Of a DNA stretch of 64,000 nt, positions 23,489-35,614 are shown piece after piece. The position numbers and the translations under genes were made by a program. Source of the DNA: Shigella phage SHSML-45; the sequence record KX130863; one strand, written 5' to 3'. The notes under the pieces are model-generated. The model saw only the letters and a list, made by a program, of their open reading frames with translations. It had not been told where the DNA came from and did not search any database. Each line of letters starts with the position of its first letter. Position 1 is the first letter of the stretch.

Positions 23489-23857
23489 TTACATCGCCTG
23501 AGTAAATGTACGACTAATAACGTCGTTCTGTTGTTCACGAGTCAGTGCGTTAAAACGTACAGCGTACCCTGAAACACGGATAGTTAATTGAGGGTATTTT
23601 TCAGGATGTTTCTGTGCATCCAAAAGCTGATCACGACTTAACACATTGACATTTAGGTGCTGACCTCCCTCGATTTGAGGAACTACTTCCACCTTGACTT
23701 CACGGAAGGATTCGGGGTCAAAATGTGGTGTGATACCTTCTAGATCCTCAACCAGAACTTTTTGTTTAAGTTCACCATCTTTAGAGTACAGTTGAATAAT
23801 CTGATTATCATGAACAAGATTAATTACGCCAGACTTAAGATTTTGATATGCTTTCAT
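23489..23857 (-). CDS. GrcA/YfiD-like autonomous glycyl radical protein
   Basis: C-terminal [17 protein letters not shown] glycyl-radical motif; start moved to Met26, which has an AGGAG RBS, because the GTG-extended ORF overlaps the adjacent tRNA. Confidence 0.8.
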
Positions 23858-23870
23858 TAGCTCTCCTGTT

Positions 23871-23946
23871 TGGTAGTTAGTAGTGGATTTGAACCACTGT
23901 AGTCGCTCCGTATGAAGGAGGTGCATAACCACTCTGCCAACTAACT
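23871..23946 (-). tRNA. tRNA-Met (anticodon CAT), CCA encoded
   Basis: Hand fold: 7-bp acceptor, T-arm AGTGG-TTCAAAT-CCACT, anticodon loop TTCATAC. Confidence 0.7.
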
Positions 23947-24042
23947 ATTATGTTTTACTAGGCTAAGTAAGTATTCTTTATACTCTTTAGACCAACTAGC
24001 TTTTTTAAACTTTCCTGGACGCATAGCCTTAATTCCTAGATT

Positions 24043-24119
24043 TGGTACTCCGGGAGGGATTTAAACCCCCGATCTCTCGGTTATCAGCCGAGTGCTTTAG
24101 ATCGCTAAGCTACCGAAGC
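24043..24119 (-). tRNA. tRNA-Ile (anticodon GAT), CCA encoded
   Basis: Hand fold: D-stem GCTT/AAGC, anticodon arm CTCGG-CTGATAA-CCGAG. Confidence 0.7.
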
Positions 24120-24134
24120 ATTAAAATATTTACA

Positions 24135-24425
24135 TCACACACTGTCTAAGTAAGAAGTATAGTGGAATTTAGTTTCTCCAGTATTATCTACTTCTACCTC
24201 AGTTCGTGGTACTTGACGAACCACACCATGAATCATCTTATATCGGATGCCTCTAGCTGGTTCATGATCTTTTGGAAATACTTGTTTAACCGTCACTACT
24301 TTATATTCTTCACGCGGTGTTAGCACTACTACTTGATCACCCTCTTTGATTTTCCAAGAAGATGGAAATTCATAGGTGTATCTTTGACCACCGGTAAGGA
24401 ATATAACAGAAAGATAACGTTTCAT
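24135..24425 (-). CDS. hypothetical protein (96 aa)
   Basis: ORF preceded by conserved promoter and leader. Confidence 0.55.
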   Translation of the reverse strand: MKRYLSVIFLTGGQRYTYEFPSSWKIKEGDQVVVLTPREEYKVVTVKQVFPKDHEPARGIRYKMIHGVVRQVPRTEVEVDNTGETKFHYTSYLDSV

Positions 24426-24455
24426 TTGGTTTCCCTCTCATTAATTTATATAAAT

Positions 24456-24484
24456 ATTATAGCAATAAATAAGAGAGAAAGCAA
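24456..24484 (-). promoter_or_regulatory. sigma70-type early promoter
   Basis: TTGCTT-N17-TATAAT on the minus strand; conserved leader. Confidence 0.55.
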
Positions 24485-24502
24485 ATGAGTTTTTCTTGAA
24501 AT

Positions 24503-24577
24503 TGGTAGCGGGTTCCAGTACTGCCCTGGACTTACTTAGCTTATGAGACTAAGAAGAACTCTATGCCTCCCACCCGC
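24503..24577 (-). tRNA. non-canonical tRNA-like gene, anticodon CAT
   Basis: Anticodon arm TTAGT-CTCATAA-GCTAA, perfect 5-bp T-stem with atypical loop GGCAGTA, CCA encoded; no U8, acceptor has a mismatch. Confidence 0.4.
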
Positions 24578-24831
24578 AATTGTTTGGTCATTCTAGGCAG
24601 GACTCGAACCTGCTATCACTTGTGCGGACTTACGAGAACCATTCTTTCACTCGAATCGAACGAGCTTCTGCCCTCGCCAAGTTGGTTTCCCCATCAACCA
24701 CGCTAGAATGTTAGATTGTTTTCAGTGCAAGAGTCCGAGTCTTGGACACGACCGCTTCGCAAGTACATAGGCAGCTTATCATGAGTCAGCACTTCCGAAT
24801 TGCTAGCTCCGTGTTCTGCACTGAAATTCTG

Positions 24832-25179
24832 TTAGTTTAATCGTAAAGTATTATCTACTTCACCATTAATTGTTCGGCATTCCTCTGGGATTGCCGGGGT
24901 GGCCTTGTATTCCCACCACTCAGCACCATCATATTCCCCACGTTCTAGCCAAGTTCCATCGGCAAACCATACATTACCATAAAGTAATTGTCCACCGTAT
25001 CCAGAATCATATTCAAAGTCTAGGTTATTAAGAAAATCCTCAATGTATTCTTCTGTATAACCTAAAGGTAATACCCAAACTTTTTTATCCCCATAATACC
25101 CGAATTCTATTTTAATACACTTAACTTTAGAATTGGTATTTTTTAAGGCGAGTAACAGCTCTTCTTTAGCATTACGCAT
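24832..25179 (-). CDS. hypothetical protein (115 aa)
   Basis: ORF. Confidence 0.5.
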   Translation of the reverse strand: MRNAKEELLLALKNTNSKVKCIKIEFGYYGDKKVWVLPLGYTEEYIEDFLNNLDFEYDSGYGGQLLYGNVWFADGTWLERGEYDGAEWWEYKATPAIPEECRTINGEVDNTLRLN

Positions 25180-25204
25180 AGTATATTCTCATACTGAATT
25201 ATTT

Positions 25205-25281
25205 TGGCGCGACCGATGGGATTTGAACCCACATTCCCTCCCGTGACAGGGGAGTACCATTACCAAGCCAGCCCCGGTCGC
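25205..25281 (-). tRNA. tRNA-Asp (anticodon GTC), CCA encoded
   Basis: Anticodon arm CTCCC-CTGTCAC-GGGAG; T-loop TTCAAAT. Confidence 0.7.
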
Positions 25282-25290
25282 ATAATTTAT

Positions 25291-25476
25291 TTACTCAGCT
25301 TTGAGTTTTTCAATAGCTGCATTAAGTTCTTTAAGAAACTCTTTTCGTACATTAAGACGATTGAGACTTACTAGTATATCATGTTTAAGTTCTTCGATGT
25401 ATTTCTTCTCAACTTCAATATTGTTGATAGTGCTATCACGATGAACTTCTAGCTGCGCAATCACATTCTTGGACAT
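25291..25476 (-). CDS. hypothetical coiled-coil protein (61 aa)
   Basis: Short ORF between tRNAs. Confidence 0.35.
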   Translation of the reverse strand: MSKNVIAQLEVHRDSTINNIEVEKKYIEELKHDILVSLNRLNVRKEFLKELNAAIEKLKAE

Positions 25477-25503
25477 GCTTGTTTCCTCAGTTATTAATGA
25501 AAA

Positions 25504-25576
25504 TGGTATCTGTGGCTGAATTCGATGTCAGCAATGATAGCTGGTTGGCTACCGGTTTACTTAACTCTACACAGAA
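25504..25576 (-). tRNA. tRNA-like element (anticodon unresolved)
   Basis: Encoded CCA, 7-bp acceptor with one mismatch, GCTGA/TCAGC stem, but anticodon loop of 6 or 8 nt. Confidence 0.3.
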
Positions 25577-25578
25577 TT

Positions 25579-25661
25579 TGGCGGGCCGTGTAGGATTCGA
25601 ACCTACGTTGTCTTTCGACACGGATTAACAATCCGCCGCCAAACCGCTTGGCTAACGACCC
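25579..25661 (-). tRNA. tRNA with anticodon GTT (Asn) and a 13-nt extra arm
   Basis: Acceptor GGGTCGT/ACGGCCC, D-arm GCCA-AGCGGTT-TGGC, T-arm GTAGG-TTCGAAT-CCTAC, variable hairpin TGTC-GAAA-GACA. Confidence 0.55.
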
Positions 25662-25813
25662 TAAATTTATATTGCTGACTAGGATTTTCACCTAGACGGA
25701 GTTAGCACCGTAGCGTGTAGCGGCATACCTCTCCAAACCGTGCCTCATCTTTCAATTACGGAGACAGTGTTCCTACGCGTGCCTGAATTGATTTAACAAT
25801 TCTTTCAGCAAAT

Positions 25814-25889
25814 TGGACGACCGCATGAGATTTGAACTCACATAAAAAGGATTTGCAATCCTTCGCCTAAGCCATTCAGCCAACGGTCG
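25814..25889 (-). tRNA. tRNA-Cys (anticodon GCA), CCA encoded
   Basis: Anticodon arm AAGGA-TTGCAAA-TCCTT; T-loop TTCAAAT. Confidence 0.7.
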
Positions 25890-26067
25890 ATCTATCTTGT
25901 TTTTCGAGATCTTCAAATTCTAGATCATTGAAGTTCCCTAGAGTACGGGTGTAGAACCTATCTCCTGAGTCATAGCCTGATTTACCACAATCATACATTT
26001 TAAATTCACGAAGAGGTGTGAAAATGTGTTCAGAACCACAACACTTAAATCTAACTAATCGTTTCAT
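25876..26067 (-). CDS. hypothetical protein (63 aa)
   Basis: Short ORF; 5-prime end overlaps tRNA-Cys, so start may be internal. Confidence 0.35.
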   Translation of the reverse strand: MKRLVRFKCCGSEHIFTPLREFKMYDCGKSGYDSGDRFYTRTLGNFNDLEFEDLEKQDRSTVG

Positions 26068-26116
26068 TAGCTTCTCCAGTTCAATTTATGTAATTATTAT
26101 ATAGAACTTTTGGAAA

Positions 26117-26395
26117 CTAAGCGACTACATTTTTTAAGAATTTGATGCCTTTCTTTTTCTTCTTATATTTCCACGTTAATGGATTTTGTCGATTATGAGC
26201 GCTTGAGATCTTTGTCTCGTCAAAGTTCTTCAATATCATGTAATCACAGGATAATTGTTCTAGTGGAATGTGATCACCGTCAAAAGCGTATACATAAGGC
26301 TGTTGACTAGCACGATAATGATAGACTTTGTTAATTCTACGTTTCAGCGACTTATCCGCGCAGTAAATAAAGAAGTTTTCAGGATGCATCAGCAT
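26117..26395 (-). CDS. hypothetical protein (92 aa)
   Basis: ORF. Confidence 0.5.
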   Translation of the reverse strand: MLMHPENFFIYCADKSLKRRINKVYHYRASQQPYVYAFDGDHIPLEQLSCDYMILKNFDETKISSAHNRQNPLTWKYKKKKKGIKFLKNVVA

Positions 26396-26405
26396 CTACT
26401 TCAAT

Positions 26406-26489
26406 TTGGTGCATCGTGATGGATTTGAACCACCAACCCCGAAGGGCACGGATTTACAGACCGCTGCAATAGACATTCTGCCAACGATG
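26406..26489 (-). tRNA. tRNA-Tyr (anticodon GTA), long variable arm, CCA encoded
   Basis: 84 nt; variable-arm hairpin CCC-TTCG-GGG; anticodon loop CTGTAAA. Confidence 0.7.
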
Positions 26490-26570
26490 CACATTTAAAA
26501 GTATTCAAATACTAGTTTAAACACTTTTAAATATGTTTCCAAATTAGATAACTATTATACCAAGTTTTAA

Positions 26571-26612
26571 GGCACTGAGCAAGTCAAATTTCGAAGAACT
26601 TGCTCAGTGCTG
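26571..26612. other. perfect 13-bp inverted repeat hairpin
   Basis: GCACTGAGCAAGT-N16-ACTTGCTCAGTGC between a CDS and the tRNA-Tyr promoter region. Confidence 0.6.
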
Positions 26613-26618
26613 TATTAG

Positions 26619-26894
26619 TTAGTCGAACTTAGGAGTGACAGTTAAGGAGAACGGAAGTTCAAAAACTTCTTCCCCCTCATTACTAACTGTAACTACACGA
26701 CCTTTAAGTTCAGACATTAAAATATCAATATCAGCTTTTGCATCTGGAGCCATGCCAGCTTCAACACATTTAGCTTTAACTTCCGGAAGGAGTTCTACAT
26801 CGTAGAAATAAAGCCATTCAATCTCACCTTCCCAGCCTTCCCAGGATTTACAGATTGCACTTTCAATACCAGTTGCTATAACACGATTTTGCAT
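26619..26894 (-). CDS. hypothetical protein (91 aa)
   Basis: ORF preceded by promoter and leader. Confidence 0.5.
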   Translation of the reverse strand: MQNRVIATGIESAICKSWEGWEGEIEWLYFYDVELLPEVKAKCVEAGMAPDAKADIDILMSELKGRVVTVSNEGEEVFELPFSLTVTPKFD

Positions 26895-26924
26895 TCGTTA
26901 ACTCCTTCATCAATTTATATAACT

Positions 26925-26954
26925 ATTATATCAGAAATTTAAAGTAAAAGGCAA
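26925..26954 (-). promoter_or_regulatory. sigma70-type early promoter
   Basis: TTGCCT-N18-TATAAT on the minus strand; conserved leader. Confidence 0.5.
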
Positions 26955-26984
26955 GTACATTTTTAAAAATTCTATTCGGAGGAG

Positions 26985-27191
26985 CTAAACTCCAGATTCT
27001 TCGGCCAAGTCTAGACTAATAAGAGTTATAGCCATAATTGCCGCACCATGTTCTTTTTCCCCGGTGTTTTTAGCAGAGTCTATAATATCCTTAATCTGTT
27101 CGTAATAACTTTTTACTTCTTGTTCAATACCTGCCTCGGCTATCATGCCTTTAGTCATGATTCGTTGCATAGTAATTTCACGGTTAGCCAT
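26985..27191 (-). CDS. hypothetical protein (68 aa)
   Basis: ORF. Confidence 0.45.
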   Translation of the reverse strand: MANREITMQRIMTKGMIAEAGIEQEVKSYYEQIKDIIDSAKNTGEKEHGAAIMAITLISLDLAEESGV

Positions 27192-27365
27192 GATGTTTCT
27201 CCAGCTTCATTTTTAATAGTTTACAAATGAAGTCAACGTCTTCATCTGTGCCTAGATCTCTATCTTCAAGAGTTGCCTTGAAGTTTTTCGTTAGTTCCAT
27301 AAGAACTACTTCTCTAGAACGACGTGTTGGCGGGGGTGGATGTCTATACATCTTATTTCCTTAAT

Positions 27366-27440
27366 TTGGTGGGTCGGAGGAGAATCTAACTCCTACTCGT
27401 TAGCTTATGAGGCCACCGCTTTAACTTTAAGCTACCGACC
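27366..27440 (-). tRNA. tRNA-Met (anticodon CAT; fMet or Ile2 not excluded), CCA encoded
   Basis: Acceptor GGGTCGG/CCGACCC, D-arm GCTT-AAAGTTA-AAGC, anticodon loop CTCATAA, T-arm AGGAG-TTAGATT-CTCCT. Confidence 0.65.
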
Positions 27441-27446
27441 CTATGT

Positions 27447-27535
27447 TTGGCGGAAGAAGGGGGAATCGAACCCACAAGGCTATATTTCAAACCGACAGAT
27501 TAGCAATCTGCTGCAATACCGTTATGCTATTCTTC
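27447..27535 (-). tRNA. tRNA-Ser (anticodon GCT), class II, CCA encoded
   Basis: 89 nt; anticodon arm GCAGA-TTGCTAA-TCTGT; long variable arm. Confidence 0.7.
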
Positions 27536-27557
27536 CGAATTTATAAGATATATTATA

Positions 27558-28076
27558 TTAGAAATTTAGCTTCATGGCAAGAAAATTTTTCAAGTTTTCG
27601 GTAGACATCTCATCCACATCTATAGGAGAAACAAACCCATTTAATTGTCTAGCAAACTTTTCGCCAGCAGGATCATTATCCCCAACAGCTACCAATTTAA
27701 AAGGTAGTAATTTCAATTGCTTTAATAGCGGTTTTCCTGGAGAAGAACCCAACATTGCTAGAGCAGGATACCCAGCATTATGTAATGCTACAGCCTTAAA
27801 TACAGATTCAGCAATTAATACTACTTTTTCATCCCCATTGAGAGTTTCTAGTCCCCATACACACTGTGTAGTAGAATAAGTAAAATATCTAGCTTCAAAG
27901 GGGCACTTACCATGACCTTTTGGAGCAGAAGGATTATAAGTCTGATAGCCTCTCAACATTCCAGAGAAGTCATACAATGGGACTGTTAGCCATCCTTCTG
28001 GGCTTAACCAGCAGTGATATTTATCTGTATCAAACCCTCTAGATAAGAGATGTTCTGTTAGTTCATCAATAGTCAT
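27558..28076 (-). CDS. hypothetical protein with Toprim-like motif (start at internal Met behind the conserved leader)
   Basis: VVLIAESVF..AVGDNDPAG resembles Toprim acidic motifs; leader ATAAATTTGAGAGAGG precedes the ATG. Confidence 0.5.
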   Translation of the reverse strand: MTIDELTEHLLSRGFDTDKYHCWLSPEGWLTVPLYDFSGMLRGYQTYNPSAPKGHGKCPFEARYFTYSTTQCVWGLETLNGDEKVVLIAESVFKAVALHNAGYPALAMLGSSPGKPLLKQLKLLPFKLVAVGDNDPAGEKFARQLNGFVSPIDVDEMSTENLKNFLAMKLNF

Positions 28077-28297
28077 ACTAGATTCCTCTCTCAAATTTAT
28101 AAATATATTATGCAGAGAATTTAGCATTCAAGCAATTGAATTTTTTAACTTTTTAGAGGAAAATCACAGGATGCTTAAGGGTAGCAGGTAAGTGGGTAGA
28201 CCCCAAAATTGTTATCCCCACTTGATTTTCAATGTGATATAGTGTAAAGTATTTGTCATAGCTGAGTGACCAAAGAGACACACTTATCCTCTACCTT

Positions 28298-28337
28298 AAA
28301 ACAGAAAAGCCCTGCGCTCTCCAGGGAACACAGGGCT
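28298..28337 (-). terminator. intrinsic terminator (minus strand)
   Basis: AGCCCTG-loop-CAGGGCT stem followed on the minus strand by TTTTCTGTTTT. Confidence 0.6.
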
Positions 28338-28361
28338 TACTTCGAATATTACGTGTGGGAA

Positions 28362-29309
28362 TTACTTGTTACGCATATCCATAATCATCTGGCCATCGTA
28401 ACCAGTGCCAACTACTGTTTGAGGTACACCGCCTTGATATTTCTGAGCACGAATCATTTCAACTTCTAGTTGTTTCCAGCGAATCATCTCAGGAGTAATA
28501 GTACGTTGCAGAGCGGCGTTAGCTTCGGCTTCCTTCTTAGCTGCGTACAGTTTAGCATCTGCATCACGTTCGTTTGCAATAGCTTGGTTGTTACGAGCTT
28601 CACGATCTGCTTCTGCTTGTTTAACCTTCTGCTGTGCTTCTTGTTCAACACGAGCCAACTCAGCTTTCGCAGCATTAACTTGTTCCTCACGAACTTTGGT
28701 ATTCTGTACCTGTTCCACGATTACAGGCGGCAAAGTAATATCCTGAAGGAACACTTGCTTAACTGTGTAACCATAAGGGCGTGCATACTCTTCAACTTCC
28801 TGTTGAATTGCGGTTTGTAATTGAGCCTGGATTTTAGCATCAAACAAATCTTGTGCTTTAGGAACAGACTTACCGAACTCACGAATAGTGGACAGTAATT
28901 TTTCAGTTACATATTTGTCTAATGCTTGATCCTGGGTACCTGCGTTAATACGGTTAATCGGTGCCTTAGAACCATCAAACTGCAACATAACAGTCAGGTC
29001 AACAGTGGATTTAAACTTATCCTGACTAGGAACCTGAAGTTTATCTAATTTTACAGCAATGTCTTTTGTACTAAAAGTATCGAAAGATGCAAATGGGTTT
29101 ACAAGATGAAAACCAGGTAATACAGGATTAGGGTCTACTTTACCCAGAAATGTTTGGGTTTTAACCGTACCATCAGAAACAATAGTATATGAATTAAAAG
29201 CTAGGATTAAACCTGCTAAACCAACTACAGCACCAATACCCCAACGTTTAATAGTGCGAATTACTTTTTGCTCAGAAGTCAGTTCTTTCATATTTTTAGT
29301 ATTAAACAT
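28362..29309 (-). CDS. SPFH/band-7 (HflK/C-like) membrane protein
   Basis: N-terminal TM helix, SPFH-like core, long Ala/Glu/Gln-rich coiled-coil C-terminus. Confidence 0.65.
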   Translation of the reverse strand: MFNTKNMKELTSEQKVIRTIKRWGIGAVVGLAGLILAFNSYTIVSDGTVKTQTFLGKVDPNPVLPGFHLVNPFASFDTFSTKDIAVKLDKLQVPSQDKFKSTVDLTVMLQFDGSKAPINRINAGTQDQALDKYVTEKLLSTIREFGKSVPKAQDLFDAKIQAQLQTAIQQEVEEYARPYGYTVKQVFLQDITLPPVIVEQVQNTKVREEQVNAAKAELARVEQEAQQKVKQAEADREARNNQAIANERDADAKLYAAKKEAEANAALQRTITPEMIRWKQLEVEMIRAQKYQGGVPQTVVGTGYDGQMIMDMRNK

Positions 29310-29320
29310 ATATTTCCTTA

Positions 29321-29521
29321 TTATTTAGAAGAGTTAGCTACTACAGTTACTTTAGTTGCAGAAATAAACAGGCTAGCATCCACAGCAAATTCAGGAGCTT
29401 TGATATCTCCATTATGAAATATGACTATACCGGAGACTACTTCAAATGCTAGTGCTGTAACATCGGTGGTATTTACTTGTGAATGTTCACCTACTACTTT
29501 TACTATATATCGTGTTTTCAC
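29321..29521 (-). CDS. hypothetical protein (66 aa)
   Basis: ORF. Confidence 0.4.
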   Translation of the reverse strand: MKTRYIVKVVGEHSQVNTTDVTALAFEVVSGIVIFHNGDIKAPEFAVDASLFISATKVTVVANSSK

Positions 29522-29547
29522 TTTATTTTCCTAGCAGTTAATAAAAT

Positions 29548-29622
29548 TGGCCGAGGTGACAGGATTCGAACCTGCATAAAGGAATTTAGAAGACTCCTGC
29601 CTCTCCCTTAGACTACACCCCG
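29548..29622 (-). tRNA. tRNA-Arg (anticodon TCT), CCA encoded
   Basis: Acceptor CGGGGTG/CACCTCG, anticodon arm GGAGT-CTTCTAA-ATTCC, T-arm GCAGG-TTCGAAT-CCTGT. Confidence 0.7.
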
Positions 29623-30123
29623 TTTAAGTATTTTTAAGAACTCTCGTAAAAACTCTTAAAAATACAGACGATACCGGGAGAGTCATAAGTCTCACTCATT
29701 AAGTATTTCAAGACAAAATACAGTAACGTCTATTATTTTCCAGTTTAAGTCAAGGTGACTTAGTGGTTATGTCCTGCGGTATACTGAGGACTCGGTTAGG
29801 TTAGGGTCATGACTCCCCACCTTTTGCTGCTACTCAACAGGAGTTATCGCGAATTACCTGTGCTATTGTGCACCATTAGTGACATCTCTCATGTCAGCAT
29901 TTCCCACTTTGTGGATAGCTTGAAAAACTACTCCGATATGGAGAAAGAACTTCACTATCCTAGAATACCTTCTAAAGTTCTTCTTTAGCCTGGACATAGT
30001 TAAATCGTAATAAAACTATTCAGCAGACTGGTTGGTTAGTCTGGAACCAACTACCGCGTGGTTTAGGCAGTGCGCAACTAACCTCGGAAGCTTTTACGTT
30101 AAAAGCACCAGTTATCCAGTTCT

Positions 30124-30195
30124 TACCGACCGTAGGATTCGAACCTACATCTTCCACCAGTTACGGCTTGATAATACCGTTTATACTAGATCGGC
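30124..30195 (-). tRNA. tRNA-like element (anticodon arm unresolved, CCA not encoded)
   Basis: Canonical T-arm GTAGG-TTCGAAT-CCTAC and acceptor GCCGATC/GGTCGGT with two G-U pairs; no standard anticodon stem found. Confidence 0.35.
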
Positions 30196-30308
30196 AGTGT
30201 TACTACATAAGTGATTTCCACACCCCACTATTTATAAATTAGAGAAGAATTACTCTCTAATTTATGAATATATTATACAGAATTTATAAGCATTTAGCAA
30301 ATGAATTT

Positions 30309-30743
30309 TTAGAAAAACTCGCTAGCAATCAAGGCGGCTGTTTTACCATCATAACGCCCCGGAAACTCTGCCTTAATAGTTTTCATTAGGAGAGCTTTGG
30401 TAATACCTGGGTTTAGCTTAACCAATTCTGCAAAATATTTACGAATTTCAGTTTCAGTTAGCTGTTGTAGTGCATAATCATGCTCTAAACGCGCTAAAAG
30501 ATCTAAGTATTCAGCATCAGGAGTATAGTCAACATTCGATTTTTCAGCGGCAATCCGTGTATTCTCAATTGCTTTGAGTTGTGATTTCAACCAGTTAGTA
30601 AACTCCAGCTCAGTTACGCAATCTTTATCAATACGTTGCAGGTCTCCTAGAACCGTACTTAGATGCTTAACTGATACAGCGTCACCACTTTTGCGAGCAG
30701 CTTCAATCAACTCTCGCAGTACATAAAGCATGTTCATGCCCAT
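30309..30743 (-). CDS. hypothetical protein (144 aa)
   Basis: ORF. Confidence 0.55.
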   Translation of the reverse strand: MGMNMLYVLRELIEAARKSGDAVSVKHLSTVLGDLQRIDKDCVTELEFTNWLKSQLKAIENTRIAAEKSNVDYTPDAEYLDLLARLEHDYALQQLTETEIRKYFAELVKLNPGITKALLMKTIKAEFPGRYDGKTAALIASEFF

Positions 30744-30913
30744 TATTTCATCCCCAATGCTTGGTTAAAAGATTGTTCTGTCATAACTACTGAGACTTTG
30801 GCGAAATCAAACTTTTTAGGGTTCGTAGTGATCTCAGCAACGTTGGAAGTTTTAACAGTTTTCGTAGTACGAATACCGCGAGTGCTAACACCAATGACGA
30901 TCAAGTTTTTCAT
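30743..30913 (-). CDS. small hypothetical protein (56 aa), below the ORF track cutoff
   Basis: ATG preceded by GAGG and the conserved promoter-leader; stop overlaps next start (ATAATG). Confidence 0.4.
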   Translation of the reverse strand: MKNLIVIGVSTRGIRTTKTVKTSNVAEITTNPKKFDFAKVSVVMTEQSFNQALGMK

Positions 30914-30944
30914 ATTTCGCTTCCTCTCATTAATTTATGAAAGT

Positions 30945-30973
30945 ATTATACAGAAGTTTAAGTATTTAAGCAA
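30945..30973 (-). promoter_or_regulatory. sigma70-type early promoter (TTGCTT-N17-TATAAT)
   Basis: Consensus hexamers; leader ACTTTCATAAATTAATGAGAGG. Confidence 0.6.
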
Positions 30974-30981
30974 ATAAATTT

Positions 30982-31431
30982 TTAAGTTTTAGTGACAGCA
31001 GGCTTATAAAATGTATGTCCCTTAATCTTAGTTGTTTTCTTAAACTTCTTTGTCCAGTATGGTTTATCTTTACCACTATGGAAGTATAAAGCTCCATGTG
31101 TAGGATCTTGTGGTAAATCAACGTAGTATATCACTCTAGCTAAATTCTTGGCAGTTTGCCAAGCCTCATCGGTTTTATCAACTTTTGGTCTCTTAGATAC
31201 CCAAGAGAACTGGTTAGACTGATATACTACTTTACAGTAGGAATCTGGAAATTTGCCGGAGTTTACACGGTTTTTAGTAACCTGTGCAACCGCCATCATT
31301 CCCTTTATGCCCTCACCACGACTCTCGAAATAGATATTTTTAGCAATGCAATCTATTTCTTTTGCATCGTGCGATGCTTGACTACTAAAGCTGAAGGTAA
31401 GGGCAGCTACTAAAAGCAAAGCTGCCTTCAT
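30982..31431 (-). CDS. cell-wall hydrolase (SleB/Hydrolase_2-like) with signal peptide
   Basis: Signal peptide plus NIYFESRGE..VTKNRV motif. Confidence 0.6.
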   Translation of the reverse strand: MKAALLLVAALTFSFSSQASHDAKEIDCIAKNIYFESRGEGIKGMMAVAQVTKNRVNSGKFPDSYCKVVYQSNQFSWVSKRPKVDKTDEAWQTAKNLARVIYYVDLPQDPTHGALYFHSGKDKPYWTKKFKKTTKIKGHTFYKPAVTKT

Positions 31432-31443
31432 TCTTTTTACTCC

Positions 31444-32265
31444 TTAAAATAGATCATATTCTAATCTATTGGGATTTTCTCGGTATCCATAAGACGTAAG
31501 AGTACCCCTCATATACTCTGCGTCAACAGGATTAGATGTTACTAGAACCACTTTTAGTGGTCTTTGACCTAAAAATAGTATATGATCTAATAAGTCTTTT
31601 CCTTGTACCTCTGGATCTCCTAAATCTGAGTCCATAAATAAATAGGATCCTGTGAAACTAAATATATCTGATAGCTCCAGCGCACCTATAACTGTACGAC
31701 AAATAATGGACATTTCAGGTAGATCTCTAACATCGTCTATTAGAATATTGGTCTGCTTCCCAATTTCTGCATTACATAAACCATTTACTAGTTTTTCTCT
31801 TTCCCCTTTAGCTTGTTCGAAAGTGGTGAAGCCAGGAGATACGAAAAACTTTCCACCTAATGTAATGCTATACACAAAACCCTCGGGGAGGAGTTCTACA
31901 CCTACGGTTTTATTAGTATTAATCCTATTTAACTTAAAATTTGTCTCTCTTAGATTAATAATTCTGTTATCCCACGGTATAGTATTTATATGGTCGATCA
32001 TATCAGGCGGCTCTTCACCATAATGGAGCAACCACGCTATTCGGTGTCCATAAATAATTGTGGGTTTATTATCTAAGAGCAAACTAACTCTGATGTACCC
32101 ATCAGAGTTCTTACTACATATTTCTCTCCCAGCATATAGGGTGTGCCAAGTTTTATTCTTGTATTTATTAGGCCTATAAAATAATTTACCGGTATAAGGA
32201 TTATACTCTATAATTTCTCGAATATAATCTATATATGGTAGTATTTGTTTTTGTAATTTACCCAT
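31444..32265 (-). CDS. HNH homing endonuclease (273 aa)
   Basis: HRIAWLLHYGEEPPDMIDHINTIPWDNRIINLRE motif in N-terminal half. Confidence 0.7.
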   Translation of the reverse strand: MGKLQKQILPYIDYIREIIEYNPYTGKLFYRPNKYKNKTWHTLYAGREICSKNSDGYIRVSLLLDNKPTIIYGHRIAWLLHYGEEPPDMIDHINTIPWDNRIINLRETNFKLNRINTNKTVGVELLPEGFVYSITLGGKFFVSPGFTTFEQAKGEREKLVNGLCNAEIGKQTNILIDDVRDLPEMSIICRTVIGALELSDIFSFTGSYLFMDSDLGDPEVQGKDLLDHILFLGQRPLKVVLVTSNPVDAEYMRGTLTSYGYRENPNRLEYDLF

Positions 32266-32707
32266 AATAGCCTCGTTTCATCAATTTAAAAATATATTAT
32301 ACAGATAACTTAATAAATTAGCAAATACATTTTTAAATTGTGAAACTAGTAAACCGATAAACAGCCTAGAGGCGCCACAGGCCATATCTTATGAGCCATG
32401 TACCTTTGATCTAGGGTTTGAATCATCAACGAATACTTTGCATCTTTTAGCTTTAGAAGTTTAGAAGTTTGAGTTCTTTAAACTTTTCAGCTTTCATACT
32501 TAAATGTTGATCTTTGAAGTTGTGTCGGTAATATCAACGACGCTTTGTTCTTACGTGTCAGCTTAAAAGGCTGGTGTAATAAACATAATCTCCAATAGAT
32601 TATACTTTATAGTATGGTCAGCGGTCTTATTTAACCTCGTATTTCAACCGCTGCTGCGAGGTAAGATGCTTGGGCTTTCGTCTACCGATTTACTAGCTTT
32701 TAAATTA

Positions 32708-33346
32708 TTACTCTACTTCAATGAAGGTAGAGGCGTTAGACTCGGACAGAACAAAGTCAACATTTGTTGCAAAGTCCTGGTATTCCTCGTCATGCTGCTT
32801 AATCAGCTTCTCCAGTTCCAGCGGATCAATCAAGAATGGAGTATTCTTGAGTTCCAGCAGGTTGAGCTGCATTTTAACTTCATCTTCGGAAGTTTTCTTA
32901 TCGCGGGTAGCCATGCTATCCTGCAAACGCTCATATTTAGCATCAAACTGTGCTTTCTGCGTATTAAACTTAACTGTAGCGGCATGGAACTGCTTACGCA
33001 TATTAGCCAGCAACTGAGCTTTAAGCTCCATAGAACGCTTAGCTTCAATTGCTTCTGCAACAGTCATTCTACGAGAACCGATCTCAACGATCGTTTCTGC
33101 GTTGCTCTTAATCAGGGCAGCTTTGATACGATCACGCTGGGACATCATATCCAGCAGAGACTGGAAATCAGTCTTAATACGAGTAGACAGGTCATCTACT
33201 TCGATTGCAGCGCCAACTACAACCTGGTTTTTATCCTTACCTTCACCAACAGCGATCAAAAGCTGTTGTTCAGTAGCTTTACGGATTTTAGCTTCCAGAG
33301 ATTTGATGGTTGCCAGAGCACGAGTTTTAGAAATACGAGTGGTCAT
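32708..33346 (-). CDS. hypothetical coiled-coil protein (212 aa)
   Basis: Preferred over the antisense plus-strand ORF on context and composition. Confidence 0.55.
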   Translation of the reverse strand: MTTRISKTRALATIKSLEAKIRKATEQQLLIAVGEGKDKNQVVVGAAIEVDDLSTRIKTDFQSLLDMMSQRDRIKAALIKSNAETIVEIGSRRMTVAEAIEAKRSMELKAQLLANMRKQFHAATVKFNTQKAQFDAKYERLQDSMATRDKKTSEDEVKMQLNLLELKNTPFLIDPLELEKLIKQHDEEYQDFATNVDFVLSESNASTFIEVE

Positions 33347-33398
33347 TGTTTCTTCCTTATATGAAGTTTAAGATTTGAATTTGTTTAAAGTTGGTCTA

Positions 33399-33581
33399 TT
33401 ACAGACCAATTGCCAGCAGAGTGCGTAGAACAGTATCGTTACTGTTATCAATTTTAGGGTTAGCACGATTTAGCAGATCAAAGATTTTCTGGATGCCGGA
33501 CTGACGTTCAGCCATACGACGCAGACCCAGGTTACGTTTTGCTACTTTACCATTTTTACGGACGTTTTTAGATACTGGCAT
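33399..33581 (-). CDS. small basic protein (60 aa)
   Basis: Own promoter and RBS. Confidence 0.45.
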   Translation of the reverse strand: MPVSKNVRKNGKVAKRNLGLRRMAERQSGIQKIFDLLNRANPKIDNSNDTVLRTLLAIGL

Positions 33582-33651
33582 AATTATTTTCCTTTTGTTG
33601 TTTTCTCAAATTTATGAATATATTATACAGAATTTTGGAGCCGGAAGCAAA

Positions 33652-34353
33652 TCAAATTTTCATTTTTTCGATCATAGCTGCAACACAATAGCTCTCAACT
33701 AAGGCATCGAATGCTGGGTCATGTTTAACTGGGTAGATTCCATAACGAATGGTATCCATCTTCTCCATCTTAGCTTTTGCCCAGCTAATCCCCTCTGCTT
33801 CTAGGTCTTTGTAACTATAACCAGCCTGCATCCAGAGATTGCGGAGAGATCGAACATTACCCAAATTCCAGAATTTCCACGGAACTATTTCTTCATTGGT
33901 TCCAGCATGGAAAGTGTTTGCAGAGTAGATAGTCATATCAAACTCTGGGCCGTTGCCATAATACAAAGCATTCTCTCCTAGAGCCAACTCCATAATATTT
34001 TGAGCCATAGAGAAGGCAGCATAGTTTGAGCCTAATTTATTAGTGCAATGATGTTTACCATTTTGGAAGGCAATCAGTTTTGGATTACGTTCCTTCATAG
34101 CTTCCATAATGTGGATAGCAGACGGGCTATTTTTAGCTTGATCCATCCAGAATGCTAGAGTAGATGCTGTAACTTTGGCACCAGAATTAAGCTGATCCTG
34201 CACATCCAAAGTAACAAATACTAGATCAGGGTCTTTATCAACCCCATGCATAGCCACAAAAGCGAAAGAAGGCATTACGATATGAGTAGTACCACAATCT
34301 CCTGGAGTTCCTAGAGATTCAATATCTAGCATACCAAATGGTTTTACTTTCAT
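33652..34353 (-). CDS. putative DnaQ-like 3-prime to 5-prime exonuclease (DEDDh)
   Basis: LDIESLG (Exo I-like) and HDPAFDA (Exo III-like) motifs. Confidence 0.55.
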   Translation of the reverse strand: MKVKPFGMLDIESLGTPGDCGTTHIVMPSFAFVAMHGVDKDPDLVFVTLDVQDQLNSGAKVTASTLAFWMDQAKNSPSAIHIMEAMKERNPKLIAFQNGKHHCTNKLGSNYAAFSMAQNIMELALGENALYYGNGPEFDMTIYSANTFHAGTNEEIVPWKFWNLGNVRSLRNLWMQAGYSYKDLEAEGISWAKAKMEKMDTIRYGIYPVKHDPAFDALVESYCVAAMIEKMKI

Positions 34354-34381
34354 AACTTATCCTTTATTGTGTAGAAAACTA

Positions 34382-34618
34382 TTAAAGAGCTGTCTCTTTA
34401 ATAGACTCCCACTTCTTGGGGTCTTTAAAACCAGGAAGCATATCCTCACTAACATCCCAGTTCTCTTCCATAGAGAAGTCAGGCCATTCATTCCAGCTAC
34501 CTTCCAGCTCTTCATAACAGGTATTCATTACCTCATGACTAGAAAGTCGTGTATAATCTCTAGCGGATTTATGGGTGCTAGCACGGTTAAAATCATTCTT
34601 TGCTACAAAATTACGCAT
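34382..34618 (-). CDS. hypothetical protein (78 aa)
   Basis: ORF. Confidence 0.45.
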   Translation of the reverse strand: MRNFVAKNDFNRASTHKSARDYTRLSSHEVMNTCYEELEGSWNEWPDFSMEENWDVSEDMLPGFKDPKKWESIKETAL

Positions 34619-34661
34619 AGTTTCTCCAAAATATGAGGGGCTTTCGCCCCCTATTTATCTA

Positions 34662-35177
34662 TTACTTCGCTTTACGCTTGCGAGCTGGTTTAGCAGATTT
34701 ACGAGCAGAATCGCCTGTGAATTTAATTCCTACACCGTAACACAGAGCACGAACGTTATCTTTGCTATATTCTACGCCAAAGATATTTGGTTTAACAGAA
34801 CCAAACTGGCCACGAGTGTCACGAAGCACATCTGCCGTTGGTTTACGCTTCTGGTTAACTGCTTTCTCATAGTCTTTCATGGCCATGCCATTACGAGAGA
34901 ACAATTCTGCTCCAGCATTGAAACTCAGTGCTACTGGAACAGATTTGTGACCATAACCCTGTACATAGGTCACAAGGCGGGCTACAGAACGAGTAGCATT
35001 CTTAGCCTTCGGCTTTTGACGAATCGTAGCCGGACGATTCAGTGCCTGTGCAGCTTGAGCATCAGTAGGATGCTTGCGCAGGTGGCGTTCCAGACGAGCT
35101 TTGCGGTTAGCCTCAGTCTGCGGGAAAGTTTTAACTGTAGTAGCTGCTTGAGTTTTTGCGTTTTTCTGCTTAGCCAT
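34662..35177 (-). CDS. basic hypothetical protein (171 aa)
   Basis: Lys/Arg-rich N and C termini; own promoter. Confidence 0.55.
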   Translation of the reverse strand: MAKQKNAKTQAATTVKTFPQTEANRKARLERHLRKHPTDAQAAQALNRPATIRQKPKAKNATRSVARLVTYVQGYGHKSVPVALSFNAGAELFSRNGMAMKDYEKAVNQKRKPTADVLRDTRGQFGSVKPNIFGVEYSKDNVRALCYGVGIKFTGDSARKSAKPARKRKAK

Positions 35178-35260
35178 TATTTGTTTTCCTTTTTGTTTAT
35201 TAATTTATGAAGTATATTATACGAGAATTTGAAGCGTTTAGCAAATGAATTTTTTAAAAA

Positions 35261-35539: not shown

Positions 35540-35614
35540 AAAGCCCCTTAACTTTCAATACGAATATTATACTAAATTAGTGGGCTTTAAGCAAGAAAAT
35601 TTTTAATTTATTTA

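What the first reader, a model, noticed from the sequence alone, without database searches (positions are those of the whole stretch)
23871..30195. tRNA island with three CAU-anticodon genes and several non-canonical members
Hand folding gives nine tRNAs with clear cloverleaves (Met-CAT x2, Ile-GAT, Asp-GTC, Asn-GTT, Cys-GCA, Tyr-GTA, Ser-GCT, Arg-TCT), most with encoded CCA, interleaved with small ORFs. Three further elements have tRNA termini but aberrant cores: 24503-24577 (CAT anticodon, atypical T-loop, no U8), 25504-25576 (even-length anticodon loop) and 30124-30195 (no anticodon stem found). Three CAU-type genes could correspond to initiator, elongator Met and Ile2.
Basis: partly seen in the sequence, partly recalled or inferred. 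Interest (0 to 1): 0.5.

Follow-up and report, generated by a model that had tools for sequence, protein, structure and literature searches.

The report
T5-type phage tRNA gene cluster
This is the long-known transfer-RNA gene cluster of a T5-like Salmonella phage (Shivani), and its three odd members are a working-looking but unusually built initiator-type tRNA that annotation tools miss, plus two tRNA-derived RNAs of unknown function already flagged in phages T5, BF23 and DT57C.

Summary
The window is Salmonella phage Shivani (Tequintavirus, 99.8% identity).

- **30124-30195:** passes Rfam (36.8 bits) but has no anticodon arm. T5 annotates it as a pseudo-tRNA. It is the 5' domain of BF23/DT57C "RNAX", and its homologue in Erwinia phage KEY is an intact tRNA-Pro(UGG).
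- **25504-25576:** this is BF23/DT57C "RNA3", a tRNA-like RNA of unknown function. The tRNA model rejects it.
- **24503-24578:** also rejected by Rfam and by default ARAGORN, yet it fits standard tRNA numbering exactly. It replaces T5 tRNA-fMet at the same locus and is unannotated in about 55 T5-like genomes.

The third element belongs to a widespread family found in phage-type tRNA arrays (32 distinct sequences). The family has strong stem covariation and an initiator-type acceptor stem: position 1:72 is never G-C, and G2-C71 and C3-G70 are conserved. It also has a linked non-canonical D-loop and T-loop (G55, U59, A60).

The "initiator / elongator Met / Ile2" reading matches curated T5-group annotation and the acceptor-stem determinants. 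Shivani's small tRNA set results from deletions relative to BF23.

The island itself is ordinary. The altered-elbow initiator-like tRNA family is a modest novelty.

The parts
23871..23946 (-). tRNA-Met(CAU), elongator type, CCA encoded
   Evidence: ARAGORN; Rfam 51.5 bits; homologue labelled tRNA-Met in BF23; U4-A69/A5-U68 as in E. coli tRNA-Met
24043..24119 (-). tRNA-Ile(GAU)
   Evidence: 64.7 bits
24456..24484 (-). sigma-70-type promoter (TTGCTT, 17 nt, TATAAT), homologue of BF23 P11/P13b; a likely deletion junction between repeated promoters
   Evidence: sequence; BF23 promoter annotation; similarity to both P11 and P13b. Not reported by the consensus scan; by my reading its -35 hexamer matches only 3 of 6
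24503..24578 (-). Element A: 76-nt initiator-type tRNA(CAU) with a non-canonical core (G8, C14, A19, T-loop GGCAGUA), CCA encoded; allele of T5/BF23 tRNA-fMet
   Evidence: rejected by Rfam
24585..24710 (-). RNA2-like 126-nt tRNA-like RNA (8-bp acceptor stem, D-like arm, two T-arm hairpins); its 3' end is fused to the tRNA-Pro trailer, which supplies the CCA
   Evidence: BF23 'RNA2, tRNA-like RNA with unknown functions'; alignments; fold
24711..24831 (-). conserved non-coding stretch closed by a 9-bp long-range helix (UUCAGUGCA / UGCACUGAA)
   Evidence: 98.1% mean identity across T5-like loci; fold (z = -1.3, weak)
25205..25281 (-). tRNA-Asp(GUC)
25504..25576 (-). Element B = RNA3: 73-nt cloverleaf-like RNA (U1.U72, A73, CCA; 6-nt 'anticodon' loop; 8-nt T-loop); not a decoder
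   Evidence: 99% identical to BF23 RNA3, 100% to T5; annotated in DT57C; no Rfam hit; fold z = -3.0; variants
25579..25661 (-). tRNA-Asn(GUU), 83 nt, with an unusual 13-nt variable arm (GUC-GAAA-GAC); a different allele from T5/BF23
   Evidence: (58.4 bits)
25662..25813 (-). 152-nt structured non-coding element between tRNA-Asn and tRNA-Cys, closed by a 7-bp terminal helix with an adjacent T-arm-like hairpin; occupies the position where BF23 and T5 carry an ORF
   Evidence: fold z = -2.6; 98-100% identical in 9 loci; no similarity to BF23; no Rfam hit
25814..25889 (-). tRNA-Cys(GCA)
26407..26490 (-). tRNA-Tyr(GUA); a different allele from BF23 tRNA-Tyr
27367..27441 (-). tRNA(CAU) assigned as Ile2 (lysidine type); the tertiary pair 19:56 appears to be U:A instead of G:C
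   Evidence: 60.6 bits; DT57C annotation tRNA-Ile(CAU); alignment
27448..27536 (-). tRNA-Ser(GCU)
28307..28338 (-). intrinsic terminator ending the transcription unit that runs RNAX, tRNA-Arg, small ORF, SPFH gene
   Evidence: 13-bp stem followed by a T run
29548..29622 (-). tRNA-Arg(UCU)
29623..30123 (-). body of 'RNAX', a non-coding RNA; conserved structured core at 29734-29907
   Evidence: BF23/DT57C 'stable RNA with unknown functions'; homologues at 72-98% identity, reaching Erwinia phage KEY and a Sugarlandvirus; consensus fold with 10 compensatory pairs; no Rfam hit
30124..30195 (-). Element C: tRNA-derived 5' domain of RNAX (acceptor, D and T arms intact; anticodon arm destroyed; no CCA)
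   Evidence: Rfam 36.8 bits with an 18-nt unaligned core; T5 pseudo-tRNA; homologues called tRNA-Pro(UGG), 'Sec(UCA)' and 'Ser(ACU)'
30272..30300 (-). sigma-70 promoter (TTGCTA, 17 nt, TATAAT), homologue of BF23 P16-17, driving element C and RNAX
   Evidence: 10 of 12 matches

Best explanation
The region is the early-gene tRNA cluster of a T5-like phage, Salmonella phage Shivani.

**How it is expressed (inferred).** Host RNA polymerase reads it leftward from several strong repeated promoters. This should give transcripts that mix tRNAs, tRNA-like RNAs and small ORFs. Host tRNA-processing enzymes would then cut out the tRNAs.

**The tRNAs.** Nine canonical tRNAs plus element A supply the infected cell.
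- They cover codons the AT-rich phage uses heavily, such as AUA and AGA.
- They can also act as spare parts when host tRNAs are destroyed by anti-phage nucleases. This has been shown for T5 tRNA-Lys and reported for T5 tRNA-Tyr, but not for any Shivani tRNA.

**Element A** is a functional tRNA. It takes the place of T5 tRNA-fMet and keeps the CAU anticodon loop and an initiator-type acceptor stem. Its D-loop/T-loop 'elbow' is replaced by a different, conserved pair of loops. It most likely accepts methionine and is probably formylated. Whether it starts translation is not shown.

**Elements B (RNA3) and C (5' end of RNAX), and the unnoticed RNA2**, are descendants of tRNA genes that can no longer decode.
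- They keep the acceptor/T-arm half that tRNA-processing enzymes recognise.
- They are as conserved as real tRNAs.
- Most likely they serve as processing or stability modules that define the ends of neighbouring RNAs and mRNAs. This step is inference.

**The small gene set.** Shivani has 10 tRNAs against 20-24 in BF23 and T5. Its map is explained by deletions relative to BF23, whose junctions lie in repeated sequence.
For: **Identity.** The region is 99.8% identical to phage Shivani, with 510 related phage records. BF23, T5 and DT57C gene maps are colinear with it.

**Canonical tRNAs.**

**Element A.**
- It aligns with BF23 tRNA-fMet in the acceptor and anticodon arms, including a compensated 27:43 pair (C-G to U-A).
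- It sits in the fMet slot downstream of tRNA-Pro in DT57C.
- The A-type and T5-type alleles never co-occur in 24 loci.
- About 55 T5-like records carry it at >=97.6% identity.
- An 11-sequence family alignment is 96% paired, with 14 of 21 pairs compensatory and 0 of 500 shuffles as good.
- A covariance model finds 35 members at >=63 bits; the next-best hit scores 52.5.
- Across 28 distinct non-canonical members: 1:72 is never G-C; G2-C71 27/28; C3-G70 28/28; A73 24/28; T-loop N-G-C-R-R-U-A 27/27, with positions 54 and 58 perfectly linked.
- Members lie inside tRNA arrays.

**Elements B, C, RNA2 and RNAX.**
- Curated 'tRNA-like' or 'stable RNA' annotations exist in relatives.
- Mean identity across T5-like loci is 96-99.5% for RNA2, RNA3 and RNAX, against 83-97% for the small ORFs.
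- Element C has acceptor-stem compensation (A5-U68 to U5-A68), and homologues carry three different anticodon arms, including an intact tRNA-Pro.
- RNA3 shows a G49-C65 to A49-U65 change.

**Deletions.** Junctions with BF23 lie in the shared RNA2/tRNA-Pro 3' sequence and in promoter repeats.

**Role of T5 tRNAs.** They are non-essential in the laboratory. T5 tRNA-Lys rescues the phage from PARIS (PMC11464382). The BF23 genome paper summarises the codon-optimisation and anti-nuclease roles, including the tRNA-Tyr/retron result (PMC10644984).

**Codon use.** AUA is 12.3 and AGA 12.0 per thousand codons in the window's ORFs. Both are rare in enterobacterial hosts (my own knowledge).
Against: - No expression, processing, aminoacylation or modification data were available for Shivani.
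- Element A lacks the three consecutive G-C pairs of bacterial initiator anticodon stems (only G30-C40 remains). It also lacks U8, A14, G19 and U55, so its efficiency on the ribosome is unknown.
- The D-loop invariance in the enlarged family is partly imposed by the search pattern.
- For B and C the processing-module role is untested. B shows single substitutions that break pairs in some phages and a 6/7-nt loop-length polymorphism. C is less conserved than the rest (93% mean, 77% minimum). Both patterns would also fit slow decay.
- The high conservation of non-coding parts could partly reflect recent mosaic exchange among T5-like phages rather than selection.
Confidence: 0.75

Rival explanations
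1. Elements B and C (and RNA2) are simply decaying tRNA pseudogenes left by the rearrangements that shape this region. They have no function of their own and persist only because the region turns over by recombination faster than point mutations accumulate.
For: - C's anticodon arm is destroyed and differs between lineages: tRNA-Pro(UGG) in KEY, 'UCA' in MET_P1, none in T5 and Shivani.
- T5 annotates C as a pseudo-tRNA.
- B's loop is 6 nt in Shivani and T5 but 7 nt in BF23, and single pair-breaking substitutions occur.
- Shivani's map differs from BF23 by deletions.
- The tRNA region is dispensable in the laboratory (PMC11464382).
Against: - B is 91.8-100% identical over 17 loci and present in 352 records. 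RNAX parts are 97-98% identical. Both are more conserved than the adjacent ORFs.
- Compensatory changes occur in C's acceptor stem and B's T stem.
- The acceptor, D and T arms of C are retained across Tequintavirus, Epseptimavirus and an Erwinia phage while only the anticodon arm varies. That pattern is selective, not uniform decay.
- BF23 and DT57C annotators list RNAX as a stable RNA.
Confidence: 0.2
2. The non-canonical members are counter-defence devices. Element A would be a methionine or initiator tRNA rebuilt so that host nucleases targeting initiator tRNA (such as enteric VapC/MvpT), or factors that read the tRNA elbow, cannot use it. B, C and RNA2 would be decoys that soak up tRNA-targeting nucleases.
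For: - T5 tRNA-Lys resists the PARIS nuclease through anticodon stem-loop changes (PMC11464382).
- T5 tRNA-Tyr is reported to rescue Eco7 retron toxicity (cited in PMC10644984).
- Phage tRNAs commonly carry changes near nuclease cleavage sites. Salmonella, Shigella and E. coli VapC-type nucleases are discussed among such defences, and tRNA-fMet is named as a target that phages generally avoid encoding (PMC10264068).
- Element A's anticodon stem differs from the host initiator at every pair but one, and its elbow is remodelled as a conserved module.
- Several Shivani tRNAs (Tyr, Asn, Ile2) are divergent alleles of the T5 and BF23 genes.
Against: - There is no test of nuclease sensitivity.
- The A-type and T5-type alleles show the same host split, about 70% Salmonella phages each, so there is no sign of host-specific pressure.
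- The family occurs in marine, soil and freshwater metagenomes, which argues against a defence specific to enteric bacteria.
- The decoy idea has no direct support at all.
Confidence: 0.15
3. Element A is not an initiator. It would be a second elongator tRNA-Met, or a lysidine-type tRNA-Ile, whose weak 1:72 pair is incidental.
For: - The three G-C pairs that bacterial initiators need for P-site selection are missing; the stem reads U-A, U-A, A-U, G-C, U.G.
- In 11 of 28 family members 1:72 is a U-A or A-U pair rather than a mismatch.
- Default ARAGORN simply calls the relatives tRNA-Met.
Against: - 1:72 is never G-C or C-G in 28 distinct members, while pairs 2-4 are almost invariant G-C, C-G, G-C, the pattern of E. 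coli tRNA-fMet.
- A11:U24 is present.
- Shivani already has a separate elongator-type Met and an Ile2-type gene.
- G4-C69/G5-C68 differs from the C4-G69/C5-G68 that TilS uses in E. coli (my own knowledge).
- The T5-group curators labelled the allelic gene initiator tRNA-fMet.
Confidence: 0.25

Closest known systems
Bacteriophage T5 / BF23 / DT57C tRNA gene region (GenBank AY587007, AJ604530, KM979354)
   Same: Same gene order, strand, repeated early promoters, interleaved small ORFs, and the same tRNAs or alleles of them. RNA2, RNA3 and RNAX are present at 94-100% identity.
   Different: Shivani lacks the block holding about 15 tRNAs (Thr through Lys) and the Phe-Trp-Glu genes. It carries different alleles of tRNA-Tyr, Asn and Ile2. 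It has the A-type allele instead of T5 tRNA-fMet, and a 152-nt structured element where T5 and BF23 have an ORF.
Bacterial initiator tRNA-fMet (E. coli metZWV/metY)
   Same: CAU anticodon loop CUCAUAA, unpaired or weak 1:72, G2-C71, C3-G70, G4-C69, A73, A11:U24, G53-C61.
   Different: No G29-G31:C39-C41 run. It has G8, C14, A19 and G55 in place of U8, A14, G19 and U55. The Rfam tRNA model rejects it.
tRNA-like processing signals (plant mitochondrial t-elements, mascRNA; minihelix substrates of RNase P)
   Same: Elements B, C and RNA2 keep an acceptor stem stacked on a T-arm-like hairpin and sit at boundaries between transcript segments, while their anticodon regions are free to vary.
   Different: No cleavage has been shown here. 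B also keeps a CCA end and a full four-arm outline, and no such role has been described for phage T5 RNAs in the papers I could search.
Nuclease-resistant phage tRNAs (T5 tRNA-Lys versus PARIS, T5 tRNA-Tyr versus retron Eco7)
   Same: Same genomic cluster in the same phage group, and phage alleles that differ from host tRNAs in stems and loops (PMC11464382; PMC10644984).
   Different: Shivani lacks tRNA-Lys altogether, and its Tyr allele differs from BF23's. No resistance has been tested for any Shivani tRNA.

Membership tests
T5-type (Markadamsvirinae) tRNA gene cluster | Near-identical sequence and colinear gene order with T5, BF23 and DT57C tRNA regions | tested here: met
   99.8% to Shivani, 90-96% to many T5-like phages; colinear blocks with BF23; annotated maps
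T5-type (Markadamsvirinae) tRNA gene cluster | Several tRNA genes on one strand, interleaved with small ORFs and repeated sigma-70 promoters | tested here: met
   10 tRNA calls on the minus strand; ORFs; promoters at 30300, 27580 and 26954 plus BF23-annotated homologues
Canonical tRNA (Rfam RF00005) | Score at or above the curated gathering threshold (29 bits) | tested here: met
   Nine genes score 46.7-64.7 bits. Element C scores 36.8 bits, but with its anticodon arm unaligned
Canonical tRNA (Rfam RF00005), elements A and B | Score at or above the gathering threshold | tested here: not met
   No match at E<=10 even in 251-nt and 351-nt searches. 8 of 9 relatives of A are also missed at E<=1
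tRNA (by structure), element A | Four-helix cloverleaf with standard lengths, supported by compensatory changes among homologues | tested here: met
   76 nt fits standard numbering. 96% of cells paired, 14 of 21 pairs compensatory, 0 of 500 shuffles as good. 95.9% paired in 28 distinct sequences
Bacterial initiator tRNA-fMet, element A | Mismatch or weak pair at 1:72 with G2-C71, C3-G70, G4-C69 and A73 (formyltransferase determinants) | tested here: met
   U1.U72 in Shivani. Across the family 1:72 is never G-C; G2-C71 27/28; C3-G70 28/28; G4-C69 26/28; A73 24/28. Compared with the E. coli sequence confirmed
Bacterial initiator tRNA-fMet, element A | Three consecutive G-C pairs (29-31:39-41) in the anticodon stem | tested here: not met
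   The stem is U27-A43, U28-A42, A29-U41, G30-C40, U31.G39. Most family members are the same
Bacterial initiator tRNA-fMet, element A | Methionylation, formylation and IF2-dependent P-site binding | not testable with these tools
   Needs biochemistry
tRNA-Ile2 (lysidine type), gene 27367-27441 | CAU anticodon with acceptor-stem features used by TilS; lysidine at position 34 | tested here: inconclusive
   C5-G68 is shared with ileX, but 4:69 is U-A. The allele is annotated tRNA-Ile(CAU) in DT57C, and the gene in that slot is tRNA-Ile2 in BF23. The modification cannot be tested
BF23/DT57C 'RNA3' and 'RNAX' stable or tRNA-like RNAs | Sequence identity and the same position relative to tRNA-Asn and tRNA-Arg | tested here: met
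   Element B is 99% identical to BF23 RNA3 and lies directly after tRNA-Asn. 29495-30251 is 96% identical to BF23 13523-14280, which spans RNAX upstream of tRNA-Arg

The most novel reading that the evidence does not exclude
Element A represents an undescribed structural class of phage-encoded, initiator-type methionine tRNAs. In this class the universal D-loop/T-loop elbow (U8-A14, G18-U55, G19-C56) is replaced by a co-adapted alternative: G8, C14, A19, G55, U59 and A60, with positions 54 and 58 switching together between U..A and R..G. The class occurs in phage-type tRNA arrays from enteric, aquatic and soil samples. The Rfam tRNA model rejects it, and default ARAGORN misses about half of it. 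Phage tRNA censuses would therefore under-count initiator-like tRNAs. The altered elbow might make these tRNAs invisible to host factors or nucleases that read the elbow.
Probability: 0.3. Interest if true: 0.65.

Novelty: new member of a known kind. Interest (0 to 1): 0.38.

Why it matters
The island itself adds nothing new. It is the classic T5 tRNA region in a published genome, and two of the three odd elements were flagged years ago in BF23, DT57C and T5 records.

Three smaller points do matter.

- **An unannotated tRNA.** A tRNA that is probably functional is missing from the annotation of about 55 T5-like genomes, because both a covariance model and default ARAGORN reject it. Counts of phage tRNAs, and statements that phages avoid encoding initiator tRNA, may therefore be biased.
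- **A natural experiment in tRNA architecture.** The family shows that a CAU tRNA can swap its whole elbow as a linked module while keeping its stems and its acceptor-stem identity elements.
- **Conserved RNAs without a function.** RNA2, RNA3 and RNAX are at least as conserved as the neighbouring small ORFs (RNA3 and RNAX more so), and their function is still unknown. Now that T5 tRNAs are known to defeat tRNA-cutting defence systems, these RNAs are obvious candidates for testing as processing signals or decoys.

Tried and rejected
- **T-loop pattern scan.** A viral-contig scan with CTCATA...GGTGCRATACC mostly hit what looks like a conserved protein-coding gene on the opposite strand. It yielded two extra viral-contig relatives (L089, L123) and cost one scan.
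- **Genome scan.** A scan of bacterial and archaeal genomes with the D-arm pattern gave four hits. Only one (a 2-kb Planctomycetales MAG contig) was a true member; the other three were chance matches.
- **RNA3 paralogues.** I looked for a BF23 tRNA or stable RNA related to RNA3 and found none; global alignment scores were at background. Its tRNA ancestor is therefore unknown.
- **RNA3 related to element A?** Both have U1.U72 and end in UACCA, but they share no sequence similarity.
- **Rfam matches.** I searched for matches to RNAX, RNA2, RNA3 and the Asn-Cys element with small search spaces and found none. A weak SpF41 sRNA hit over element C (25.5 against a gathering score of 52) is just the tRNA-like part.
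- **RNA2 as an intron-bearing tRNA.** ARAGORN's intron mode calls Arg-CCG with a 48-nt intron. I rejected this because I know of no bacterial tRNA intron that short (my own knowledge), and the insert itself carries a second T-arm-like hairpin.
- **Literature.** Two searches were wasted on terms that were too broad or too short. No paper in the held library describes T5 RNA3, RNAX or an altered-elbow phage tRNA.
- **Pfam on the small ORFs.** The scan gave only Toprim, SPFH, a glycyl-radical domain and DUF7337. None of these explains the RNAs.

Full report
**What the window is.** The stretch 23700-30400 is 99.8% identical over its full length to Salmonella phage Shivani (KP143763 / NC_028754, Tequintavirus, Demerecviridae). 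It matches 510 phage records, almost all of them T5-like phages of Salmonella, Escherichia and Klebsiella. The RefSeq record annotates nine tRNAs here, with their strand given wrongly, and leaves the three odd elements blank. A near-identical phage record adds a 'tRNA-Ser' at the third element.

**Checking the observation.** ARAGORN finds ten genes in the whole 64-kb window, all in this island and all on the minus strand. The Rfam tRNA model finds the same ten.
- The nine canonical genes are Met-CAU, Ile-GAU, Asp-GUC, Asn-GUU, Cys-GCA, Tyr-GUA, a second CAU gene, Ser-GCU and Arg-UCU.
- They score 46.7-64.7 bits against a threshold of 29.
- All nine carry an encoded CCA.

The tenth gene, 30124-30195, scores 36.8 bits. 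The model aligns only its acceptor, D and T arms and skips 18 nt in place of the anticodon arm. ARAGORN's 'Ser-ACU' label is therefore meaningless.

The elements at 24503-24577 and 25504-25576 get no Rfam match even at E<=10 in short searches. ARAGORN finds the first only with a lowered threshold or its mitochondrial model, and does not find the second on the correct strand.

**The island is the classic T5 tRNA region, in a reduced form.** The BF23 tRNA-region record (AJ604530) was curated by the group that sequenced these genes. It is colinear with the window in blocks of 91-97% identity. It annotates 'RNA2' and 'RNA3' as tRNA-like RNAs with unknown functions, and 'RNAX' as a stable RNA with unknown functions.
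- Element B is RNA3. It is 99% identical to BF23, differing by one extra A in the loop, and 100% identical to T5. DT57C also annotates it.
- Element C is the 5' end of RNAX. The T5 record AY587007 marks it as a tRNA pseudogene.
- A 126-nt RNA2 homologue lies at 24585-24710.

Relative to BF23, Shivani lacks the segment carrying Thr, Gly, two Gln, His, two Ser, Leu, Ala, Val and Lys plus several stable RNAs. It also lacks the Phe-Trp-Glu genes.
- One junction lies in the 3' sequence shared by RNA2 and tRNA-Pro. This gives Shivani's RNA2 a CCA end that BF23's lacks.
- The other junction lies in repeated promoter sequence.

Deletions of this region are tolerated in the laboratory. T5Mos has lost 16 of T5's 23 tRNAs (PMC11464382).

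**Element A is a real tRNA, allelic with T5 tRNA-fMet.** With T24578 included, the element is 76 nt long and fits standard tRNA numbering without gaps.
- Acceptor stem: seven positions, with U1.U72 unpaired.
- D stem: G10.U25, A11-U24, G12-C23, G13.U22.
- Anticodon stem: five pairs closing CUCAUAA.
- Variable loop: 5 nt.
- T stem: UCCAG/CUGGA.
- 3' end: A73, then CCA.

It aligns with BF23 tRNA-fMet through the acceptor and anticodon arms, with a compensated 27:43 pair, but the D and T arms are different sequences. In DT57C it occupies the fMet slot directly after tRNA-Pro and is unannotated. In 24 T5-like loci the two alleles never occur together: six carry the A type and fifteen the T5 type. 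Across GenBank phages about 55 T5-like records carry the A type at >=97.6% identity, none of them annotated as a tRNA. About 370 carry the T5 type.

More distant copies (73-78% identity) sit in tRNA arrays of Klebsiella Stephanstirmvirinae phages and Aeromonas Lahexavirus phages. Pattern scans of viral, genome and metagenome collections added many more.

- *Stem covariation.* An 11-sequence alignment is 96% paired, with 14 of 21 pairs showing changes on both sides. No shuffle out of 500 matched this, and shifted registers give only 35-49% pairing.
- *Family size.* A covariance model built from that alignment finds 35 matches at 63-94 bits (32 distinct). The next-best match scores 52.5.
- *Initiator-type features.* These positions were not fixed by the search pattern. 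Among 28 distinct non-canonical members, 1:72 is never G-C or C-G (16 mismatches, 11 U-A or A-U, 1 U.G). G2-C71 occurs in 27/28, C3-G70 in 28/28, G4-C69 in 26/28 and A73 in 24/28. CCA is encoded in 21/28.
- *T-loop.* It reads N54-G55-C56-R57-R58-U59-A60 in 27/27. Position 54 is U exactly when 58 is A, and is a purine exactly when 58 is G.
- *Linked loops.* Relatives whose D-loop keeps GG (T5/BF23 fMet, Aeromonas phage TS3) have the ordinary TTCGATT T-loop. The two loops therefore change as a unit.

One caveat applies. The invariance of the D-arm itself is imposed by the pattern used to find most members.

Default ARAGORN calls the U54 form tRNA-Met but misses most of the purine-54 form, including Shivani's. 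The Rfam tRNA model misses eight of nine members tested.

**Which CAU gene is which.** The acceptor stem of element A matches the E. coli initiator at positions 2-6 and 67-71, at A73 and at A11:U24. My recalled initiator sequence is present at 100% identity in all 5,426 E. coli genomes, with a median of four copies. By established knowledge of E. coli formyltransferase, those positions plus an unpaired 1:72 are the formylation determinants. The three G-C pairs of the anticodon stem, needed for P-site selection, are absent. 'Initiator-like, probably formylated' is therefore as far as the evidence goes.

The gene at 23871-23946 has U4-A69/A5-U68, like E. coli elongator tRNA-Met, and is labelled tRNA-Met in BF23. 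The gene at 27367-27441 has C5-G68, like ileX, and is labelled tRNA-Ile(CAU) in DT57C. The E. coli ileX and metT sequences used are from memory and were not verified.

**Elements B and C.** Element C has homologues across Markadamsvirinae. These keep the acceptor stem (with an A5-U68 to U5-A68 swap in BF23), the D arm and the T arm, but carry three different central regions:
- a proper tRNA-Pro(UGG) in Erwinia phage KEY;
- a 'UCA' loop, annotated tRNA-Sec, in an Epseptimavirus;
- no stem at all in T5, BF23, Shivani and S124.

None encodes CCA. Element C is thus a tRNA-Pro descendant that has lost decoding. It is the first structured element after a strong promoter at 30300-30272.

Element B folds into a four-arm outline with U1.U72, A73 and CCA, a 3-bp D hairpin, a 6-bp stem and an 8-nt T-loop. 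It is present in 352 records at >=90% identity. Its variants include one compensatory T-stem change, one wobble change and three pair-breaking changes.

Across T5-like loci the conservation figures are as follows.

| Feature | Mean identity |
|---|---|
| RNA3 | 98.6% |
| RNA2 | 95.9% |
| RNAX segments | 97.7-97.9% |
| Asn-Cys element | 99.5% |
| Element C | 93.0% |
| Real tRNAs | 96.8-99.8% |
| Small ORFs | 83.5-97.5% |

This favours function over decay, but recent mosaic exchange could inflate it.

My preferred reading is that these RNAs act as processing or stability modules recognised through their acceptor/T-arm half. That reading is inference. Decay and decoy roles remain open.

**RNAX.** The 501 nt between element C and tRNA-Arg contain a core of about 174 nt (29734-29907). 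It is conserved from Tequintavirus to Erwinia phage KEY and, in rearranged form, to a Sugarlandvirus. A consensus fold gives a closing helix GUGG/CCAC and five further helices, with ten pairs showing compensatory changes. Rfam has no match. Its function is unknown.

**How the island most likely works.** T5-like phages express tRNAs as early genes from host-type promoters (PMC10644984). The window's ORFs use AUA at 12.3 and AGA at 12.0 per thousand codons. Both codons are rare in enterobacteria (my own knowledge), which fits retention of Ile2 and Arg-UCU. T5 tRNA-Lys defeats the PARIS nuclease, and T5 tRNA-Tyr is reported to rescue retron Eco7 toxicity. Shivani keeps a Tyr gene, of a different allele, but has no Lys gene, so PARIS sensitivity is a testable prediction.

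**Verdict.** The island is already known, and two of the three odd members carry prior 'unknown function' annotations. The new element is the recognition that 24503-24578 is a conserved, unannotated initiator-type tRNA. It belongs to a widespread family with an alternative elbow that standard detectors reject.

Noticed in passing
window 29734-29907 (within RNAX, 29623-30123): A structured RNA core of about 174 nt with a closing helix GUGG/CCAC and several hairpins that show compensatory changes. It is conserved from T5-like phages to Erwinia phage KEY and a Klebsiella Sugarlandvirus. It has no Rfam family and is annotated only as 'stable RNA with unknown functions' in BF23 and DT57C.
   Followed up: partly
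window 25662-25813: A 152-nt non-coding element between tRNA-Asn and tRNA-Cys that folds better than shuffles (z = -2.6). It has a 7-bp terminal helix next to a T-arm-like hairpin. It is 98-100% identical in nine other T5-like loci and absent from BF23, which carries an ORF in that position, as does T5. It is unannotated in the Shivani records I examined.
   Followed up: partly
window 25579-25661: tRNA-Asn(GUU) is 83 nt long with a 13-nt variable arm (GUC-GAAA-GAC hairpin), which is unusual for an Asn tRNA. It is a different allele from the 78-nt tRNA-Asn of BF23.
   Followed up: partly
window 26407-26490 and 27367-27441: tRNA-Tyr and the Ile2-type tRNA are strongly divergent alleles of the BF23 genes. 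The Ile2 allele has T-loop UUAGAUU and a D-loop with a single G, which looks like a G19:C56 to U19:A56 swap of the elbow pair.
   Followed up: partly
window 24585-24710: The RNA2 homologue has an 8-bp acceptor stem and two T-arm-like hairpins, one of them identical to the T-arm of tRNA-Pro. In Shivani its 3' end is fused to the tRNA-Pro trailer, creating a CCA end that BF23 RNA2 lacks.
   Followed up: yes
window 27558-28076: A stand-alone 172-aa Toprim-domain protein, annotated 'DNA primase', is encoded inside the tRNA island (Pfam Toprim_2, 22.4 bits, just above its cut-off). Some Toprim enzymes are RNA nucleases, so a role in RNA processing is conceivable. This was not tested.
   Followed up: no
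L008 1501-1989 (Pseudoalteromonas phage J2-1, MF988720): The 5' half of an A-type tRNA (through the CAU loop) is followed by unrelated sequence and an annotated endonuclease gene. This suggests a tRNA gene interrupted by an intron or a homing-endonuclease insertion.
   Followed up: no
L004 488-595 (Klebsiella phage FBKp34) and L206 4267-4368: Sub-threshold matches to the Y RNA-like (YrlA) family (39.6 and 35.8 bits; gathering score 69). The FBKp34 match lies next to the phage's tRNA array.
   Followed up: no
NC_028754 annotation of 30476-36227 (L001): The RefSeq record places all nine tRNA features on the plus strand, although the genes are on the minus strand, as ARAGORN, Rfam and a near-identical record show.
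   Followed up: yes
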